A stretch of 62,706 nt of DNA from Candidatus Rokuibacteriota bacterium. GTDB taxonomy: Bacteria > Methylomirabilota > Methylomirabilia > Rokubacteriales > CSP1-6. Both the position numbers and the translations under genes were made by a program. The stretch is taken from assembly GCA_003221455.1 (NCBI GenBank), contig QHRX01000024.1, positions 1-62,706 of the forward strand, given 5' to 3'. Each line of letters starts with the position of its first letter. Positions within the stretch are counted from its first letter, which is position 1. Positions 7,417 to 18,439 of the stretch are shown one piece after another. Under the pieces are notes generated by a model that was given only the letters and a program-made list of their open reading frames with translations, had not been told where the DNA came from and did not search any database.

Positions 7417-7514
7417 CTCCCTCCCCGCCCCGTCGCCCGGCTCCCGCTTGTCGAGGGGGGCATTGTCGTCTATCGTGGCGCCGGACCAGTCGACCGGGCC
7501 GAGGAGCGACGCCA

Positions 7515-9371
7515 ATGAAGTCCTTCGTCGTCAACCGCTACGGGCGCCTCGTCTTCCCCTTCAACTTTTTCCCGGAACTCGACTTCTCGATCTTCGAGAG
7601 CCTCGAGCAGTTCGCGGCGGTCATCAGGCGCGACTTCGAGGAGAAGGCGCCGTCCGAGACCGAGATCGTGGCCCGACTCGAGGCCGGCCTCTACCGCCGG
7701 CGCCACGAGCTCTTGCGGGATCTCGCGCTGAACCTGTTCTGGGTCAATCGTTACGCGATGACGATGTACGACAAGCGCCCCACGCGCTGGCGCGACGTGC
7801 CCCGTCACCGCGACGACGTGTTCCTGCCGGTCTTCACGCCGTGGGACGGCGCCGGGCCGGTGGCGCGGATCGAGGCGGGCTACCGAGCGCTCGGACCGAC
7901 CTGGGACGAGGGGACCGAGGACAAGGTCTTCCGCATCCTGTTCGACGTGTTCCGCCACAAGAAGGGCGCGGGGGCGGAGCTGCCCGCCGTCAAGCCGACG
8001 GTGCCGGAGATCCTCGCCGACCCCCGCAGCCTCACCTACCACCTCCTCGCGTACGACCCCGACTACCCGGGCTACAGCTACGCGGACATCGTCGAGTGCT
8101 TCCACCGAGTGCCCGAGCTGGAGGCGCTCTCGCGGCAGGCGATGGTCCTCCACAACCAGTACCGCTGGGACCGCGGGCAGACCCGGCTCACCGAGGTCGG
8201 CCGGCTCGCCCCCGACGACTTCGTGGTCGTCTTCCACCCGCGCACCGAGGAGGTGCTCCAGTTCATCCGGCGTGTGAAGGGCAACCGGCGCCAGCGCGTG
8301 CGCCGGCCGACACCGGTCGAGGCGCGCAAGCCGGCGAGCCCCTACCCGCCCGTGGACGTGCGCGCCCGCTTCAAGGTCCTGCCGCGCGTCGAGGCCCTCG
8401 CCGTGTACCGGGGCGAGCGGGTCTGCACCAACGACGACCTGATCCGCAACGCCGCCTACTGCTGGTCGCCCATGACCGCCGACGAGATCCGCGAGAAGAC
8501 CGGCATCGAGCAACGCCGGTACACGGAGCTCGAGCTCGACCATATGGCGCTCCTGGCCGCGAGGGCGGCGCTCGCCAAGTCCGGTCACGGGCCGGAGGAG
8601 ATCGGCGCCCTGCTCTTCTGCTCGTGCACGAGCGTGAAGATGATGCCGTCGGTCGGCACCTGGCTCTCGGGCCAGCTCGGGATGTTCCAGACGCACGTCT
8701 CGTGCGACCTGGTGGCGGCCTGCGCCGGCCTGCCGTACGGTCTGGCCGAAGCGGTGCGCGTGCTCCAGGAAGTCGAGCGGCCCGTGCTGGTCGTGTGCGG
8801 GGAGAAGTTCTCCGACAAGATCGGGACGGTGCGGACCTCGCGGATGATCTTCGGCGACGCGGCGGCGGCCCTCGTGCTGGCCCCGGCCCCCGCCGGCGCG
8901 CCGCCCGACATCGAGGTGTACCAGACCTACGCGAGCGGCCCCATGAGCGAAGTCGACTCGATCATCTGGCCCAACCCCGAGTTCGACAACAACATCACCG
9001 TCTACGGCCCCGAGGTCCGGGCGCTCGTCCAGCGCTACCTCAGCCAAATGCTGGCCGAGCTGACGGCGCTGCCACACCCCGACGGCGGGCCGGGCTCGAT
9101 GCTGGACGCGATCGACGTGATCGTGCCTCATCAGGCGAACAAGACCATGGTCGTGAGCCTGGCCCGGGCGGCCGGTATCCCGCCCGAGCGGCTCTACTTC
9201 AACATCGAGCGCGTCGGCAACACGTCCTCGGCGTCGATCCCGCTCGCGCTCCACGACGCCGTCCGCGAGGGCGTCATCGCGCGCCCCGTGCGGGTGTTCG
9301 CGCCCGGCTTCGGCGCCGGCGCCGTCGGTGGCTACGTGGTGCTCCGCTTCGATCCGGCGGTCGTCGCCTAG
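7515..9371 (+). CDS. KAS III (FabH-like) condensing enzyme with a large uncharacterised N-terminal domain
   Basis: RBS GAGGAG and ATG at 7515. The C-terminal part has DLVAACAG, IFGDAAAA, VPHQAN, VGNTSSAS and GFGAG; the first ~270 aa are unrecognised. Confidence 0.88.
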   Translation: MKSFVVNRYGRLVFPFNFFPELDFSIFESLEQFAAVIRRDFEEKAPSETEIVARLEAGLYRRRHELLRDLALNLFWVNRYAMTMYDKRPTRWRDVPRHRDDVFLPVFTPWDGAGPVARIEAGYRALGPTWDEGTEDKVFRILFDVFRHKKGAGAELPAVKPTVPEILADPRSLTYHLLAYDPDYPGYSYADIVECFHRVPELEALSRQAMVLHNQYRWDRGQTRLTEVGRLAPDDFVVVFHPRTEEVLQFIRRVKGNRRQRVRRPTPVEARKPASPYPPVDVRARFKVLPRVEALAVYRGERVCTNDDLIRNAAYCWSPMTADEIREKTGIEQRRYTELELDHMALLAARAALAKSGHGPEEIGALLFCSCTSVKMMPSVGTWLSGQLGMFQTHVSCDLVAACAGLPYGLAEAVRVLQEVERPVLVVCGEKFSDKIGTVRTSRMIFGDAAAALVLAPAPAGAPPDIEVYQTYASGPMSEVDSIIWPNPEFDNNITVYGPEVRALVQRYLSQMLAELTALPHPDGGPGSMLDAIDVIVPHQANKTMVVSLARAAGIPPERLYFNIERVGNTSSASIPLALHDAVREGVIARPVRVFAPGFGAGAVGGYVVLRFDPAVVA

Positions 9372-11799: not shown

Positions 11800-11882
11800 G
11801 CCCCGTCTCGCGCCTCAGTTGACATCAGCCCGCCACCGTCGTCAACGGCTCCTCCCCGTGCGACCCGGCCCCGCCGACCCGG

Positions 11883-13466
11883 TCAGTGCGCTCCGCCGAT
11901 CCGCCGCGGCATGACCCGCGCGAAGAGTGCGGCCAGGGGCGCGCAGGCCAGGCCGAGGAAGCTCAGCAACCGGAAGTTGTCGGCGAAGGCGAGCAAGGTC
12001 GCCTGCTGCACGACCACGTTGTAGACCACCCCGAGCGCCTGTCGGGAGGCGGTCACGGGGTCCGTCTGGCGCGCGAGCCCGGCCCGGAGCGCCTGGAGCT
12101 TCCGGAGGTACATCGGGTCGTACGGCGTCAGGTGCTGCACGAGGACGTTCTGGTGCACCTGCGCGGCGCGCGCCAGCAGGGTCGTCACCATCGAGATGCC
12201 GACGCTGCCGCCGATGTTTCGCATCAGGTTGTAGATGCCGGTCGCGTTCCCCATCTGCTCGTTGCGCAGCCGGCCGAGCGTGGTGGTCGAGAGGGGGACG
12301 AAGATGAGGCCGGTCGAGATCCCGTTCACGATGCTGACGAACGCGACGCTCCAGAGCGAGATGTCGAGCGTCATCTGGCTGTAGAGGAGGGCGGAGACCC
12401 CGAAGAGCACGAAACCGGCGGCGATCAGCACGCGGCTGTCGATGAACCCGATGAGCCGGCCCACGACGATGGCCGCGCACATGGCGCCGACGCCGCGCGG
12501 GCTCAGCGCGAGCCCGCTCTGCATCGCCGGATAGTTCATGAGCGTCTGCAGGAAGAGGGGGAGCTGCACGGTGGTGCCGTACAGGCCGACCCCCACCGCC
12601 ACGGCCATCAGGGTGCCGACCGCGAAGTTGCGATCCCGCATGATGCGGAGGTCGACGATCGGATGGTCCGCCAGCAGCTCCCGGGCGACGAACGCGAGCA
12701 ACGCGATCACCGAGATCACCGCGACCCACCGGATCCACACCGCGGAGAACCAGTCGTCCTCCTGTCCCTTGTCCAGGATGACCTGCAGCGTGCTGAGCCC
12801 GATGGCCATCAAGCCGAAGCCGACATAGTCGATCCGGCCGCGCTCGACGCGCCGGATGTAGGGCGGGTCCTCGATGAAGGCCTGGGCCATCAGGAGGGCG
12901 AGGAGGCCGACCGGCAGGTTGATGTAGAACACCCAGCGCCAGCTGTAGTTGTCGGTGATCCAGCCGCCGAGCGTCGGTCCGAGGATCGGGGCCACGATGA
13001 CCCCCATCGAGTACGCCGCCATCGCGGCCCCGCGCCGGGCCGGCGGGAAGCTCTCCATCAGGATGGCCTGGGCGATCGGCTGGAGCGCGCCGCCGCCCGC
13101 GCCCTGGACGACCCGCGCCGCGACGAGCATGCCGAGGCTCAACGCCGCTCCGCACGCCGCCGACGCCGTGGTGAAGATCAGGATGCAGGCCATCAGGAAC
13201 CGCTTGCGGCCGAAGAAGCCCGAGAGCCAGGCGGACGCCGGCAGGATGATCGCGTTGGAGACGAGATAGCTCGTGAGCACCCAGGTCGCCTCCGAGGGGG
13301 TGGCGGAGAGGCTCCCGGCGATGTGCGGGAGGGCCACGTTGGCGACGGAGGTGTCCAGGACCTCCATGAAGGTCCCGAGCATCACGGAGACGGCGACGAG
13401 CCAGGCGTTGTATCGGGGCCGCCACTCGCCCGCCCCGGGAGTCGGGCCCGCGCCTCCGTTGCCCAT
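11883..13466 (-). CDS. emrB: DHA2-family (EmrB/QacA) multidrug efflux MFS permease
   Basis: Motifs MEVLDTSVANVALP, APILGPTLGGWITD, WRWVFYIN and RNIGGSVG. Confidence 0.92.
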   Translation of the reverse strand: MGNGGAGPTPGAGEWRPRYNAWLVAVSVMLGTFMEVLDTSVANVALPHIAGSLSATPSEATWVLTSYLVSNAIILPASAWLSGFFGRKRFLMACILIFTTASAACGAALSLGMLVAARVVQGAGGGALQPIAQAILMESFPPARRGAAMAAYSMGVIVAPILGPTLGGWITDNYSWRWVFYINLPVGLLALLMAQAFIEDPPYIRRVERGRIDYVGFGLMAIGLSTLQVILDKGQEDDWFSAVWIRWVAVISVIALLAFVARELLADHPIVDLRIMRDRNFAVGTLMAVAVGVGLYGTTVQLPLFLQTLMNYPAMQSGLALSPRGVGAMCAAIVVGRLIGFIDSRVLIAAGFVLFGVSALLYSQMTLDISLWSVAFVSIVNGISTGLIFVPLSTTTLGRLRNEQMGNATGIYNLMRNIGGSVGISMVTTLLARAAQVHQNVLVQHLTPYDPMYLRKLQALRAGLARQTDPVTASRQALGVVYNVVVQQATLLAFADNFRLLSFLGLACAPLAALFARVMPRRIGGAH

Positions 13467-13618
13467 CGCCGGTCGCTGGTCCTCCTGTGCCTCCAGCCTG
13501 AATTGGCCGGTGCGCGGCGGGAAAAGGTATTATGGCAGCCTGATGGACACAGTATAAGGCCCCCGCGCCGCGCGTCCGGCGGGGGCCCGCCGCGACGGCG
13601 GTAGCCGATCCGGAGACC

Positions 13619-14938
13619 ATGCGACCCGGCGACTTTTTCGCGGACCTCAGGAAGTTCTCGGAGTTCACCGCCCGCGGGCGCTACCCGCGGCGCCGCCTGC
13701 TCGGATTCGGCGCGATCGCCCTCGGCGTGGCGGCCGCGCTCGGCTACGCCGGCTACCTGTACTGGTATGGCCAGACGCACGTGTCCACCGACGACGCGTA
13801 CATCACCGGGCACATCGCGCCCGTGAGCGCCCGCGTCGCGGGGCCGGTGATCGCGGTCCTGGTCGACGACAACCAGGACGTGAAGGCGGGCGCGGTCCTC
13901 GTTCGCCTCGATCCCAAGGACTACGAGGTCGCCCTCGCCCAGGCGCGCGCGGCGGTGGAGACGGCTCGCGGCGACCTCGGCAACGCGAACGCGACCGTGC
14001 CGCTGACCAGCGAGACGACCGCGAGTGGCCTCCGCCAGGCGGAGGCGGCGCTGGCGGCCGCACAGCACGGCAGCCGGGTCGCCGAGCACGACCTCGAGGA
14101 GCGGCGGAGCGCGCTCGCGTCCAAGCAGGCGGCGGTGGCCGCCGCCGACGCCGCGGTGCGGGCGGCGGAGGCGGACTTCGAGCGCGACCGCCTGGACCGT
14201 GAGCGGTCCGCCGAGCTCTACAAGCGGGAGCTCGTCGCCAAGCAGGATCTGGACCACGCGGACGCCGCCTACAACAACGCCCGGGCGACGCTCGACGTGG
14301 TCCGGGAGAAGCTGGCCCAGGCGCGGGCCGACGTCCAGCAGGCGGCGGCGGCGGTCCGGAGTCAGGAGGCGGCGGCGGCCCAGGCCGGGCAGCGGGTGCG
14401 CGAGGCCCAGGCGGCGGCGGCCACCGCGCGGAGCCAGCTGCGCCAGGTGACCTTGAAGGAGTCCGACGTGGACGCCTCCCGCGGACGACTCGCGCAGGCG
14501 CTGGCGAACCTGGAGCAGGCCCAGCTGAACCTCGCCTACACGACCATCCGGGCGCCGCTGGACGGCCGGGTCACGAAGAAGACCGTCGAGGTGGGCCAGG
14601 TCGTTCAGCCGGGGCAGGCGCTGCTCGCGATCGTCGACCTTGACACCCTGTGGGTCGTCGCCAATTACAAGGAGACGGAGCTCACCAACGTCCGGCGGGG
14701 CCAGCGGGCGACGGTCACGGTGGACACCTATCCAGGCGTCGTCTTCCGGGCGCGGGTGGACTCCGTCCAGGCCGGATCGGGCGCCGTCTTCTCGCTGCTG
14801 CCGCCCGAGAACGCCACCGGCAACTTCATCAAGGTGGTGCAGCGGGTGCCGGTGAAGCTCGTCTTCGAGGCCGGCGAGAACTCACGGCATCTGCTGGTCC
14901 CCGGCATGTCCGTGGTCCCCACGATCGCGCTCCGGTGA
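13619..14938 (+). CDS. emrA: EmrA-type HlyD family membrane fusion protein
   Basis: Motifs STDDAY, long coiled coil and FSLLPPENATGNFIKVVQRVPVK. Confidence 0.92.
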   Translation: MRPGDFFADLRKFSEFTARGRYPRRRLLGFGAIALGVAAALGYAGYLYWYGQTHVSTDDAYITGHIAPVSARVAGPVIAVLVDDNQDVKAGAVLVRLDPKDYEVALAQARAAVETARGDLGNANATVPLTSETTASGLRQAEAALAAAQHGSRVAEHDLEERRSALASKQAAVAAADAAVRAAEADFERDRLDRERSAELYKRELVAKQDLDHADAAYNNARATLDVVREKLAQARADVQQAAAAVRSQEAAAAQAGQRVREAQAAAATARSQLRQVTLKESDVDASRGRLAQALANLEQAQLNLAYTTIRAPLDGRVTKKTVEVGQVVQPGQALLAIVDLDTLWVVANYKETELTNVRRGQRATVTVDTYPGVVFRARVDSVQAGSGAVFSLLPPENATGNFIKVVQRVPVKLVFEAGENSRHLLVPGMSVVPTIALR

Positions 14939-15011
14939 CGGACACGGTGAGCGCTCGGCCGGGACGGCGTCACCCCACGCCCGGGCGCCCGAGCACGCGC
15001 GCCCTGCCCGC

Positions 15012-15905
15012 GTGCCGACGGTCGCGGATCCCGAGCCTCGCGTGACGCCGCTGTCGGTCTACCTGCCCTTCAACCGCGAGGCGCTCGGCGGCGCGTTCGC
15101 GCCGGCCAAGCGCGCGACGAAGGCGCCCGAGGGCCGCCAGGGCTACTGGCTCGTCGTCCACGAGCAGAACCTCCTCGTCGCTCGGGAGGGCGATCGCTTC
15201 CGGCTGCCGCAGGGCGACCCCCCGTCCGGGCTCGAAGGCCTGCGGGAGCAGGCGCTCTGGCTCGGGACGTTCGACGGCACGCCGTGCTGGGTGCTGGCGC
15301 TCGCGCGGGGCGCCGCCGTCCCCGCCGGCCTTCACGCCGAGACGCTCGTCCCGATGCGCGGCACGCAGCTCCCCGACGACCTGCTCTCGCTCGGCGGCAT
15401 GGCCATGCAGGCGCTGCACTGGGAGGGCACCAGCGGTCACTGCCCGCGCTGCGGCCAGCCCACCGAGCGGATCGAGGGCGAGTGGGGCAAGCGGTGCCGG
15501 CAGTGCCGCTACGAGCACTATCCCCACCTCCACCCGGCGGTCATCATCTTGATCCGCGACGGCGACCGCTGCCTGCTCGCCCGCAAGCGCGAGTGGGCCC
15601 CCGGTCGCTACGCCCTCGTGGCGGGCTTCGTAGACAACGGGGAGTCGCTCGAGGGCGCCGTCCACCGCGAGGTGAAGGAGGAGGTCGGCGTGGACGTGAC
15701 AGACCTCCGCTACGTCGGGAGTCAGAACTGGCCCTTCCCGAGCCAGCTCATGGTCGGCTTCGTCGCCACCTATGCCGGTGGCGAGGTGCGGATCGAGCCG
15801 AGCGAGCTCGAGGACGCGCGGTGGTTTCCGTGCGACCGGCTCCCCGACGGCCCGTCGCGCCATAGCATCGCCCGGTTCATCATGGACCACTACGCCCGCG
15901 ACTGA
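15012..15905 (+). CDS. nudC: NAD(H) diphosphatase
   Basis: Zn ribbon CPRC..CRQC, Nudix box AGFVDNGESLEGAVHREVKEEVG and SQNWPFPSQLM signature. Confidence 0.93.
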   Translation: MPTVADPEPRVTPLSVYLPFNREALGGAFAPAKRATKAPEGRQGYWLVVHEQNLLVAREGDRFRLPQGDPPSGLEGLREQALWLGTFDGTPCWVLALARGAAVPAGLHAETLVPMRGTQLPDDLLSLGGMAMQALHWEGTSGHCPRCGQPTERIEGEWGKRCRQCRYEHYPHLHPAVIILIRDGDRCLLARKREWAPGRYALVAGFVDNGESLEGAVHREVKEEVGVDVTDLRYVGSQNWPFPSQLMVGFVATYAGGEVRIEPSELEDARWFPCDRLPDGPSRHSIARFIMDHYARD

Positions 15906-16082
15906 TCCACCCACCACGCCGCCGGGGCCCGCCGCACGCTACGGGGCCCCCGCCCTCGGGCGGGCGGCCCCGACCAGCATCACGACGATCGGCATGACGC
16001 ACGGCCGGGCGCGCCCAGGCCCGCCCGGCAGGCCGAGGCACCGACCGTCCCGGCGCACGAGCCCGGGTGACGCCGGGCCGCG

Positions 16083-17141
16083 TCAGCCGGCGCGGGCGGC
16101 GACCTGGGCCCAGCCGAGCGCGGCGAGGAACGGGGCGCGGAGCCCGCGCTCGCGGGCGTTCGGATCGTTCGCGGTGCCGGCCAGCACGCGCCCCATGATG
16201 CCCTGCGAGATCGCGGCGAGCCGAAAGAGCGAGAAGCCCACGTAGAAGTCCCAGTCCTCGATGCCCGCGCGCCCCGTCCGGCGGCAGTAGGCCCCGACGT
16301 ACGCCGGCTCCGACGGGATCCCGAGCGCCGCCAGGTCCTTCCCACCGAGGCCGTCCGCGTCGAAGTAGTACGGCACGCAGGTGTAGGCGAGGTCCGCGAG
16401 CGGGTGGCCGAGCGTCGAGAGCTCCCAGTCGAGCACCGCCAGGATCCGCGGCTCGGTCGGATGGACCACGATGTTGCCGGGCCGGTAGTCGCCGTGCACG
16501 AGCGTCGTCTCGTCGCCGGCCGGGACGTGCGCCGGGAGCCACTCGATGAGCCGCTCCATCTCCGGGATCGGCTCCGTCTGCGAGGCCCGGTACTGCGTCG
16601 TCCAGCGGTGGATCTGCCGGGCGAAGTAGTTGCCGGCCTTCCCGAAGTCGCCGAGCCCGAGCGCCAGCCAGTCGAGTCCGTGCAGGCGCGCCAGCACCCC
16701 GTTCATCGCGTCGTAGAGGGCGCCGCGCTCGGCGGGGCTCACGCCCGGCAGCCGCGGGTCGGCGAAGATCCGCCCGCGCACGCAGTCCATGACGTAGAAC
16801 GGCGTCCCGATCACGGTCGGGTCGTCGCAGTACACGTACGTCCGGGGCACGGGAATGTCGGTCGCCGCCAGCGCGGTCAGCACCCGGTACTCGCGGTCGA
16901 CCGCGTGGGCCGAGGGCAGGAGCCGGCCGGGCGGCTTGCGTCGGAGGACGTACTCCCGGTCGCGGGCGCTCAGCAGGTAGGTCGGGTTGGACTGGCCCCC
17001 CTGGAACTGGCCGACGACGACGGGGCCGGCGAAGCCGCCGACCCGCCGCGCCAGGTATCGCTCGAGCGCGGCGACCTCGAAGCGGTGCGCCTCGCGCACC
17101 TCGCCGACCCGTTGCGTGAGTTCCTCCGGGCCCTCGGCCAC
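16083..17141 (-). CDS. Aminoglycoside-phosphotransferase-like kinase (ACAD10/11 kinase domain, LvaA-like)
   Basis: Motifs [27 protein letters not shown] and [16 protein letters not shown]. Confidence 0.9.
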
Positions 17142-17230
17142 GATGCTGGATTGTACGGCATGGCCAGCGAGCGCGTCTTGACGTAGACTCGCTGGCGGGC
17201 CCCCGCTCGCCGGGCGCCAGGGAGAGCTCG

Positions 17231-18439
<1,209 letters not shown>

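What the first reader, a model, noticed from the sequence alone, without database searches (positions are those of the whole stretch)
7515..9371. KAS III fused to a ~270-aa N-terminal domain of unknown function
Seen: a 618-aa ORF whose C-terminal part keeps the Cys-His-Asn triad (DLVAAC, PHQAN, GNTSSAS). It is preceded by a long, aromatic-rich, well-structured domain (NRYGRLVFPFNFFPELDF...LNLFWVNRYAMTMY...MVLHNQYRWD) and a basic linker. Established: FabH/KAS III enzymes are about 320-350 aa single-domain proteins. The KAS part is also atypical (GEKFSDKIGTVRTSRMIFGD, IIWPNPEFDNNITVYGPEV), and a canonical fabH lies 4 kb upstream, so this is not the housekeeping copy. Inference: a specialised condensing enzyme whose extra domain supplies substrate, acts as a carrier or performs a second reaction. 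No ACP gene is in the window, so it may use CoA substrates.
Basis: partly seen in the sequence, partly recalled or inferred. Interest (0 to 1): 0.75.

Follow-up and report, generated by a model that had tools for sequence, protein, structure and literature searches.

The report
Capped KAS III feeding PHA storage
This real and widely conserved two-domain enzyme probably makes the starter molecule of the bacterial storage plastic PHB from malonyl-CoA in place of the textbook thiolase, and its extra domain, which matches no known fold, is predicted to clamp onto the loops around the enzyme's CoA entrance; none of this has been tested at the bench.

Summary
The 618-aa ORF is real: an unclassified N-terminal domain ('X', aa 1-258), a basic linker and a KAS III with intact Cys403-His539-Asn569. 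X is followed by this KAS clade in 185 of 193 fetched loci; the other 8 are cut by a locus end. The family spans Rokubacteria, Acidobacteriota, Actinomycetota and others. Outside Rokubacteria it sits in PHA clusters beside carboxylases, and in Acidobacteria it is fused to a PhaB-type reductase. In one actinobacterial family 33 of 34 X genomes carry PhaC and 33 of 34 a multidomain ACC. Swap test: 5 of 5 acidobacterial pha clusters without X have a thiolase in front of the same reductase, against 0 of 47 with X. Best reading (0.65): an NphT7-like acetoacetyl-CoA synthase replacing PhaA, though not an NphT7 member. A complex model (0.81, best control 0.01) docks X's most conserved residues on the KAS CoA-entry loops, so X looks like a cap rather than a carrier. 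Caveats: here the gene lies apart from the genome's pha cluster, and no activity is shown. The scan reached the PHA reading before on other DNA (six notes); the swap test and docking site are not in those note excerpts.

The parts
7501..7506 (+). Shine-Dalgarno-like GAGGAG, 8 nt before the start codon
   Evidence: sequence; homologues begin at the same MKxFxxN
7515..9371 (+). Gene for the 618-aa X-KAS III protein, putative acetoacetyl-CoA synthase for PHA synthesis
   Evidence: full-length AlphaFold2 model pLDDT 89.3, pTM 0.88
7515..8288 (+). Domain X (aa 1-258): mixed alpha/beta domain with no family or fold match; predicted cap on the KAS CoA-entry loops (interface aa 3-44, 68-82, 200-211)
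   Evidence: model pLDDT 89.0; no match; complex model; conservation
7761..7829 (+). Second conserved patch of X (aa 83-105, rich in Arg, Lys and aromatic residues) not listed in the predicted KAS interface; candidate ligand or partner site, or simply core
   Evidence: conserved at 90% or more, not among the listed contacts; function inferred only
8289..8354 (+). Basic, proline-rich, poorly conserved linker (aa 259-280)
   Evidence: mean conservation 0.47 over aa 256-280; no secondary structure in the model
8355..9368 (+). KAS III domain (aa 281-618), FabH fold, catalytic C403 (8721-8723), H539 (9129-9131), N569 (9219-9221)
   Evidence: triad invariant in 71 of 71
8448..8474 (+). Family-specific segment N312-M320 (NAAYCWSPM), about 6 residues longer than in Aquifex and the window's FabH, centre of the predicted X interface, with invariant N312, W317, S318
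   Evidence: alignments; contacts; conservation

Best explanation
The protein is an ACP-independent, decarboxylative acetoacetyl-CoA synthase that replaces beta-ketothiolase (PhaA) in PHA synthesis. Step 1 (inferred from the intact triad and FabH chemistry): acetyl-CoA acetylates Cys403. Step 2 (inferred): malonyl-CoA, made by an ATP-dependent ACC or a transcarboxylase, is decarboxylated at His539/Asn569 and attacks the acetyl-enzyme, giving acetoacetyl-CoA irreversibly. Step 3 (inferred from context): a PhaB-type reductase, fused in Acidobacteria and on contig C123 in this genome, makes 3-hydroxybutyryl-CoA for PhaC/PhaE. Domain X is an integral cap packed on one KAS protomer, against the loops that in FabH hold the CoA adenine and against the flap insert (predicted); it most likely shapes the site for a second CoA thioester or gates this irreversible step (inferred, weaker). 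Shown here: the fusion, its conservation, the gene context and the swap with thiolase. Not shown: any activity, the substrates, expression, or what X does.
For: (1) Fusion: about 890-aa acidobacterial forms add a C-terminal FabG/PhaB-type SDR. In a quick tree it groups (SH-aLRT 99) with the SDRs that follow thiolase in thiolase-type pha clusters, and apart from this genome's FabG on C255. (2) Swap: in one acidobacterial family 6 of 141 genomes have X and 11 of 141 have PhaC; all 6 X genomes have PhaC. The 5 PhaC loci of the X-less genomes all have a thiolase about 70 nt before an SDR 59-68% identical to the fused one, and no X or KAS; 0 of 47 acidobacterial X loci that contain phaC have a thiolase in the fetched flanks (68 such loci examined, a few are duplicates). 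(3) Co-occurrence in one actinobacterial family of 111 genomes: X 34, PhaC_N 34, overlap 33; multidomain ACC 37, overlap with X 33. In 21 of 21 fetched loci of that family the ACC is next to the gene and 20 of 21 hold a phaC. (4) Different carboxyl systems are recruited: a single-chain ACC of about 1835 aa, of the type shown to make malonyl-CoA in S. erythraea (PMC6491548), or CT + BCCP with or without a 5S-like subunit. (5) The link also occurs in the window's own class: L008 (maoC, X-KAS, phaC, phaE; 78% identical) and L087 (phaC, X-KAS, ACC; 73%); the window protein lies in one clade (100) with both. This genome has a thiolase-free pha cluster on C123 and accA/accD/accC. 42 of 44 X-positive relatives have PhaC against 38 of 57 X-negative. 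(6) The Arg after PHQAN in FabH is T52/N14/other 5 and never R in 71; NphT7 is described as lacking an Arg needed for ACP binding (PMC5432608; that it is this Arg is my recall). (7) Complex of X with a KAS dimer: 0.81, best of 3 controls 0.01 (mark reached by 116 of 157 solved and 2 of 215 mismatched pairs; runs agree in at least 75% of contacts, partner pLDDT at least 82). X interface conservation 0.83 against 0.68 elsewhere, reached by 1 of 10000 random draws.
Against: No biochemical or genetic test exists. In Rokubacteria the gene is nearly always unlinked: only 1 of 45 loci holds phaC, and the window's neighbours are beta-oxidation-type genes. Rokubacterial pha clusters lack a thiolase whether X is present (0 of 6, plus own genome) or absent (0 of 8), so the swap is not seen in this lineage; 38 X-negative relatives have PhaC and this genome has at least three thiolases. 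Thiolases do lie within 5 of 21 actinobacterial-family loci and in L087 (6 of 21 at the looser count). The acidobacterial carboxyltransferase does not track X: its close class (70% identity or more) is in 4 of 6 X genomes and 11 X-less genomes, two of them thiolase-type, methylmalonyl-CoA mutase is adjacent in 7 of 68 loci, and no close 5S homologue was found in 5 genomes with CT + BCCP loci (best 27% identity). The NphT7 AGGSR motif is absent, and K/R543 keeps a positive charge beside the lost Arg in 69 of 71. The SDR is ambiguous by profile: above the FabG cut-off, just below the PhaB ones. The complex job paired two halves of one gene, which tend to pass; KAS-side interface conservation is barely above background (516 of 10000). 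Genomes of one family are not independent, and many are incomplete MAGs.
Confidence: 0.65

Rival explanations
1. Same pathway, other substrates: the enzyme mainly takes propionyl-CoA as primer or methylmalonyl-CoA as extender, giving 3-hydroxyvalerate or 2-methyl-branched PHA monomers.
For: The acidobacterial CT is of the PccB/12S kind, with 5S-like subunits in 16 of 68 loci and mutase in 7 of 68. The S. erythraea multidomain ACC carboxylates both acetyl- and propionyl-CoA (PMC6491548 abstract). Position 377, at the FabH acyl pocket by my recall, is I/M/L rather than Phe.
Against: It takes the exact place of a thiolase before a PhaB-type SDR, and clusters carry short-chain-type PhaC/PhaE. Substrate range cannot be read from sequence here.
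Confidence: 0.12
2. It is an ACP-dependent FabH-like enzyme (acetyl-CoA plus malonyl-ACP) that drains fatty-acid synthesis towards PHA through a later ACP-to-CoA transfer.
For: FabH fold and triad; K/R543 next to the lost Arg; the fused SDR passes the FabG cut-off; acpP exists in the genome.
Against: No ACP, FabD or PhaG cluster appeared among conserved neighbours (ORFs under 90-100 aa were not clustered, so ACP was not properly tested). The canonical Arg is absent in 71 of 71. The SDR groups with thiolase-linked reductases.
Confidence: 0.08
3. It is a non-decarboxylative Claisen enzyme (thiolase- or OleA-like) joining two acyl-CoAs, with X supplying what is needed to activate the second substrate.
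For: It replaces a thiolase positionally; in Rokubacteria no carboxylase is adjacent.
Against: A biotin carboxylase system is adjacent in 21 of 21 actinobacterial-family loci, 10 of 10 long actinobacterial metagenome loci and 39 of 45 long acidobacterial loci. Sequence and fold rank FabH far above OleA-type entries.
Confidence: 0.07
4. In Rokubacteria the gene has left the PHA pathway and supplies acetoacetyl-CoA or another beta-ketoacyl unit to a different sink.
For: Unlinked to phaC in 44 of 45 loci; present in only 44 of 101 relatives while PhaC is in 80; neighbours vary between genera.
Against: 78% identity to L008, where it lies between maoC and phaC; 42 of 44 carriers have PhaC; no alternative conserved pathway neighbour was found.
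Confidence: 0.08

Closest known systems
NphT7 acetoacetyl-CoA synthase, Streptomyces sp. CL190 (Okamura et al. 2010, seen only as cited in PMC5432608 and PMC11539682)
   Same: KAS III fold, Cys-His-Asn triad, loss of an ACP-binding Arg, proposed reaction acetyl-CoA + malonyl-CoA to acetoacetyl-CoA. The engineered NphT7-PhaB-PhaC route to PHB (PMC11539682) is the pathway proposed here.
   Different: NphT7 is single-domain, carries an AGGSR motif and serves the mevalonate pathway. This family has the 258-aa X cap, a WPNPEFDNN insert in that region, a natural PHA context and a PhaB fusion in Acidobacteria. No NphT7 sequence was available, so orthology was not tested by tree.
FabH / beta-ketoacyl-ACP synthase III (TIGR00747, PRK09352)
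   Same: Fold (Foldseek TM to target 0.75-0.87), triad, Arg151-equivalent R440 invariant.
   Different: Below the family cut-offs (133.6 of 292.1; 167.7 of 249 bits), 26-29% identity, Trp32 position is E/D, Arg after PHQAN lost, extra domain. In 401 Actinomycetota genomes the KAS profile gave 2 hits near 1e-180 (both with X), then ordinary FabH at 1e-44 or weaker, with nothing between.
PhaA beta-ketothiolase of the PhaA-PhaB-PhaC pathway
   Same: Same position in the gene cluster and same proposed product.
   Different: Different catalytic class (decarboxylative, irreversible, costs a carboxylation); not a thiolase by Pfam.
Multidomain ACC SACE_4237 of Saccharopolyspora erythraea (PMC6491548)
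   Same: The about 1835-aa neighbour has the same BC-BCCP-ACC central-CT layout.
   Different: Described as essential for fatty-acid synthesis; the paper's main text has no mention of FabH, ketoacyl or polyhydroxy terms. Here it tracks X-KAS and PhaC as an accessory module.
Archaeal thiolase-HMG-CoA synthase-DUF35 complex (recalled, from no call)
   Same: An accessory domain that helps build a CoA site on a thiolase-fold enzyme.
   Different: No DUF35 or OB-fold match appeared for X; the analogy is functional only.

Membership tests
KAS III / thiolase-fold condensing enzymes | Thiolase fold with Cys-His-Asn triad | tested here: met
   Pfam PF08545 and PF08541 above cut-off; Foldseek E 1e-23 to FabH; C403, H539, N569 invariant in 71 of 71
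FabH (housekeeping KAS III) | Score above the curated family cut-off | tested here: not met
   TIGR00747 133.6 against 292.1; PRK09352 167.7 against 249
FabH (housekeeping KAS III) | Trp32/Arg151 adenine sandwich | tested here: inconclusive
   Role from PMC4606726 passages. R440 aligns to Arg151 and is invariant; the Trp32 position is E/D, but invariant W317 lies in the adjacent insertion and could stand in
FabH (housekeeping KAS III) | Arg after PHQAN for ACP docking (role recalled) | tested here: not met
   T52, N14, other 5, R 0 of 71; FabH structures show PHQANxR
FabH (housekeeping KAS III) | Uses malonyl-ACP | not testable with these tools
   needs an enzyme assay
NphT7 acetoacetyl-CoA synthase | AGGSR motif | tested here: not met
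   Motif from PMC5432608; absent from the protein and the family consensus, which has IIWPNPEFDNN in that region
NphT7 acetoacetyl-CoA synthase | Lacks the ACP-binding Arg of FabH | tested here: met
   assuming (recall) that the Arg meant in PMC5432608 is the one after PHQAN
NphT7 acetoacetyl-CoA synthase | Mevalonate gene-cluster context | tested here: not met
   No mevalonate genes among the annotated recurrent neighbour clusters; PHA genes instead
NphT7 acetoacetyl-CoA synthase | Condenses acetyl-CoA with malonyl-CoA without ACP | not testable with these tools
   inferred from context only
NphT7 acetoacetyl-CoA synthase | Orthology to NphT7 by phylogeny | not tested
   no NphT7 sequence was returned by any tool
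PhaA-type thiolase | Thiolase_N and Thiolase_C domains | tested here: not met
   no thiolase Pfam hit at E up to 1
Acyl carrier domain (for X) | Invariant Ser in a DS(L/I) motif on a small helical bundle (recalled) | tested here: not met
   no PP-binding hit; no invariant Ser; S25 varies in divergent members; 258-aa alpha/beta model
Any solved fold (for X) | Structural match covering most of the domain | tested here: inconclusive
   Foldseek best E 0.47; VIA-align best Z 4.6, rmsd 3.1, 79 aligned, none at Z 5 or more among 48161 chains; a weak or missing match does not show a new fold

The most novel reading that the evidence does not exclude
A natural, irreversible, carboxylation-driven route to PHA exists in at least four phyla of mostly uncultured soil bacteria, and X is a new-fold allosteric cap that sits on the CoA entrance and uses its second Arg/aromatic patch (aa 83-105) to sense a CoA ester or nucleotide, so deciding whether malonyl-CoA goes to membranes or to storage polymer.
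Probability: 0.25. Interest if true: 0.82.

Novelty: new variant of a known kind. Interest (0 to 1): 0.62.

Why it matters
Textbook PHB synthesis starts with a reversible thiolase, and the malonyl-CoA route is known to me and in the papers found only as an engineered pathway using NphT7 borrowed from a mevalonate cluster (PMC11539682). A natural version would explain pha clusters that lack phaA, change how carbon storage is annotated in abundant soil lineages (thousands of proteins now labelled FabH), and give engineers alternatives to NphT7, whose efficiency was limiting in yeast (PMC5432608), including a ready KAS-PhaB fusion. X would add a domain without a known fold and a possible way to regulate a condensing enzyme.

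Tried and rejected
Identity of X: no hit in Pfam or NCBIfam, PDB sequences with a 41-sequence profile (best E 0.57), ESM Atlas by features (structure search not possible), Foldseek on PDB and BFVD, VIA-align wide and second look, or plasmids. A profile search of 1.84 billion representatives gave 422 hits, of which only the best 150 were listed and 14 read; these were members, fragments or frameshifted forms of the same family, so the 272 weakest hits were not seen. Sequencing-error fusion: rejected. Stand-alone X: the best 120 of 790 short hits start like the fusion and look truncated or frameshifted, but P0202 has 5 members of exactly 271 aa on contigs up to 6.5 Mb, and P0272, P0318, P0386 are divergent 252-278-aa proteins; their DNA context could not be fetched, so a split or free X is not excluded. 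Link to the window's own neighbours (FadB-like, fabH, thiolase, ECH): only two upstream genes are shared with the same-genus locus L001 and none recur widely, so treated as incidental. Dedicated carboxyltransferase in Acidobacteria: tested, does not track X. CO2 recapture by X onto biotin: considered and dropped, as it would give no thermodynamic gain over thiolase and partners differ by lineage. Expression: no RNA holder listed; three soil metatranscriptome contig sets hold only short pieces mostly under 90% alike, which says nothing about this gene. The SDR tree is the quick version; the careful search did not finish. The X-KAS tree is FastTree, midpoint-rooted, and was not used for direction of transfer. 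Where CoA sits in the complex model was not reported. Literature: nine searches listed no paper whose title or abstract start describes this fusion or a natural KAS III in pha clusters; subscription papers are mostly not covered and no supplements were read. Okamura 2010 was not held. A term search in PMC12625853 found nothing.
Full report
Observation. window:7515-9371 encodes 618 aa behind a GAGGAG. Family and PDB matches cover only aa ~290-612. The KAS part scores below the FabH cut-offs and is 29% identical to the window's canonical FabH. The 120 best of 4118 database hits are full-length at 78-98% identity, many labelled Rokubacteria or Methylomirabilota. The fusion is therefore real.

Distribution. 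X occurs in 44 of 101 relatives of the window genome, 2 of 401 sampled Actinomycetota, 34 of 111 genomes of one actinobacterial family and 6 of 141 of one acidobacterial family. Among 193 fetched loci with X (a few duplicates) it is followed by this KAS clade in 185 and cut by the locus end in 8; no locus had the KAS clade without X. A KAS-only profile on 401 Actinomycetota gave two hits near 1e-180, both with X, then nothing until ordinary FabH at 1e-44. Possible free X proteins (P0202 and three divergent ones) could not be checked.

Gene context. Acidobacterial members are about 890 aa, with a C-terminal FabG/PhaB-type SDR. Their neighbours are a carboxyltransferase, a biotin carrier, in part a 5S-like subunit, the PhaR regulator, a phasin-like and a PhaE-like protein, and PhaC (the phasin and PhaE labels rest on position and weak or no Pfam support). 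Actinobacterial members adjoin a single-chain ACC of about 1835 aa (BC, BCCP, ACC central, CT), the type shown to supply malonyl-CoA in S. erythraea (PMC6491548; I read part 1 of 5 of the text and term passages), together with class I PhaC and an SDR or hydroxyacyl-CoA dehydrogenase. In the family of 111 genomes X, PhaC_N and this ACC nearly coincide: 34, 34 and 37 genomes, overlaps 33 and 33 (one PhaC match, G570, is only a weak partial hit). Kin are not independent, so I give no p-value.

Swap test. Eleven of the 141 acidobacterial genomes have PhaC; six have X, all among the eleven. I fetched the pha loci of the other five. All five carry a thiolase about 70 nt upstream of an SDR 59-68% identical to the fused one, and no X, KAS or CT; none of 47 acidobacterial X loci containing phaC has a thiolase in its flanks of up to 8 kb. 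In a quick tree the fused and thiolase-linked SDRs form one group (99), joined more weakly (89) by the pha-cluster SDRs of Actinobacteria and Rokubacteria, including this genome's C123 gene, and apart from its FabG. This is the pattern of one enzyme displacing another at the acetoacetyl-CoA step.

The window's own lineage is the weak point. Only 1 of 45 rokubacterial loci holds phaC (L008: maoC, X-KAS, phaC, phaE); L087 from the same class has phaC, X-KAS and the single-chain ACC but also thiolases. G000 keeps phaC, phaE, maoC, phaB, phaR and a phasin-like gene on C123 with no thiolase. Such clusters lack thiolase in 6 of 6 X-positive and 8 of 8 X-negative relatives alike. 42 of 44 X carriers have PhaC, but so do 38 of 57 non-carriers. 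Function here is transferred by orthology: 78% to L008, 73% to L087, 65-69% to acidobacterial fusions, one clade. Also against a neat picture: the acidobacterial CT is not X-specific, and no close 5S homologue was found in five genomes with CT + BCCP loci, so their carboxyl donor is unexplained and methylmalonyl-CoA chemistry is possible.

Active site. C403, H539, N569 and R440 are invariant in 71 full-length members. R440 aligns with FabH Arg151, which with Trp32 sandwiches the CoA adenine (PMC4606726, passages; alignment). The Trp32 position is acidic here, next to a longer segment, N312-M320, with an invariant Trp. The Arg after PHQAN is never Arg. NphT7 is reported to lack an ACP-binding Arg and to carry an AGGSR motif (PMC5432608, passages; the original paper was not held); the first feature is shared if my recall of that Arg is right, the second is not.

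Domain X. It folds confidently alone (pLDDT 89.0) and matches nothing by sequence, features or structure. The full-length model has pTM 0.88, which implies a fixed position on the KAS. Folded as a separate chain with a KAS dimer and CoA, X scored 0.81 against a best control of 0.01 (mark reached by 116 of 157 solved and 2 of 215 mismatched pairs; runs agree in at least 75% of contacts; partner pLDDT at least 82). These are halves of one gene, which tend to pass, though X has no solved look-alike. It touches one protomer at aa 302-322, 336, 433-438, 443 and 488-492: the insertion beside the Trp32 position, the loop before R440, and the family's WPNPEFDNN flap. The X side (aa 3-44, 68-82, 200-211) is its best conserved part: 19 of 31 residues at 90% or more against 54 of 227 elsewhere. 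X has no invariant Ser, Cys or His. I read it as a cap on the CoA entrance, not a carrier or second enzyme. A second conserved patch (aa 83-105) is not among the listed contacts and could bind a ligand or be core.

Mechanism and rivals. Most likely (0.65) acetyl-CoA plus malonyl-CoA gives acetoacetyl-CoA, then PhaB and PhaC; this is the route that has been engineered with NphT7 (PMC11539682, passages). Rivals are other primers or extenders (0.12), ACP dependence (0.08), non-decarboxylative condensation (0.07) and a changed role in Rokubacteria (0.08). It works like NphT7 but fails the motif and context tests, so it is not filed as a member.

Novelty. Nine searches listed no description of this protein or of a natural KAS III in pha clusters; coverage is limited to open papers and no supplements were read. 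Passages of PMC8100337 and PMC3473371 note incomplete PHA pathways in Acidobacteriota MAGs and Microlunatus, but those concern other missing genes and were not linked to this family. I formed the PHA reading before consulting the scan's notes; six of them, on other genomes, say the same. They are repeats, not independent support. The excerpts shown do not mention the swap test or the docking site. Verdict: new variant of a known kind, interest 0.62.

Noticed in passing
P0202 (271 aa; 5 cluster members of equal length on contigs up to 6.5 Mb); P0272, P0318, P0386: Possible stand-alone or split X proteins; DNA context could not be fetched.
   Followed up: partly
P0251 (622 aa): An X-KAS whose catalytic Cys and Asn positions and R440 are replaced (A, D, A): a likely pseudo-enzyme that keeps X.
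   Followed up: partly
L193:2348-4195 (-) and L193:15075-16922 (-), genome G560: Two X-KAS copies flank one PHA cluster; one is strongly diverged (53% to the window protein, long branch).
   Followed up: no
L087 (G501:C20), 11862-17438: A eukaryote-like single-chain ACC of about 1858 aa in a Methylomirabilota genome, directly after X-KAS and phaC, outside the Actinobacteria where it was described.
   Followed up: partly
L046:5382-7959 and similar loci L042-L080: Carboxyltransferase, a 130-150-aa ORF with an N-terminal hydrophobic stretch and no Pfam hit, and a biotin carrier, with no biotin carboxylase or 5S subunit beside them; no close 5S homologue found in 5 genomes.
   Followed up: partly
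L084:12292-12606 (-) and 19 other loci: A conserved protein of about 104 aa without Pfam hit, between an XRE-type HTH gene and class I phaC in actinobacterial clusters; phasin-like by position.
   Followed up: no
G000:C123:3338-8582 (L083): The genome's PHA cluster: SDR, SCP2-like ORF, phaC, phaE, maoC, phaB, phaR, phasin-like gene, without a thiolase; this layout recurs in 14 relatives.
   Followed up: yes
window:571-7416: Upstream run of FadB-like fusion, a second canonical fabH, thiolase, two oxidoreductases and an enoyl-CoA hydratase; fabH, thiolase and hydratase confirmed by Pfam, the others named from sequence only.
   Followed up: partly
L072:8184-9605 (-), also L043, L071, L073: MaoC-phosphate acyltransferase fusion inside acidobacterial PHA clusters.
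   Followed up: no
L144, L164, L167, L172: Methylmalonyl-CoA mutase large subunit next to the transcarboxylase-like genes or between phaC and X-KAS, hinting at propionyl- or methylmalonyl-CoA flux into PHA.
   Followed up: partly
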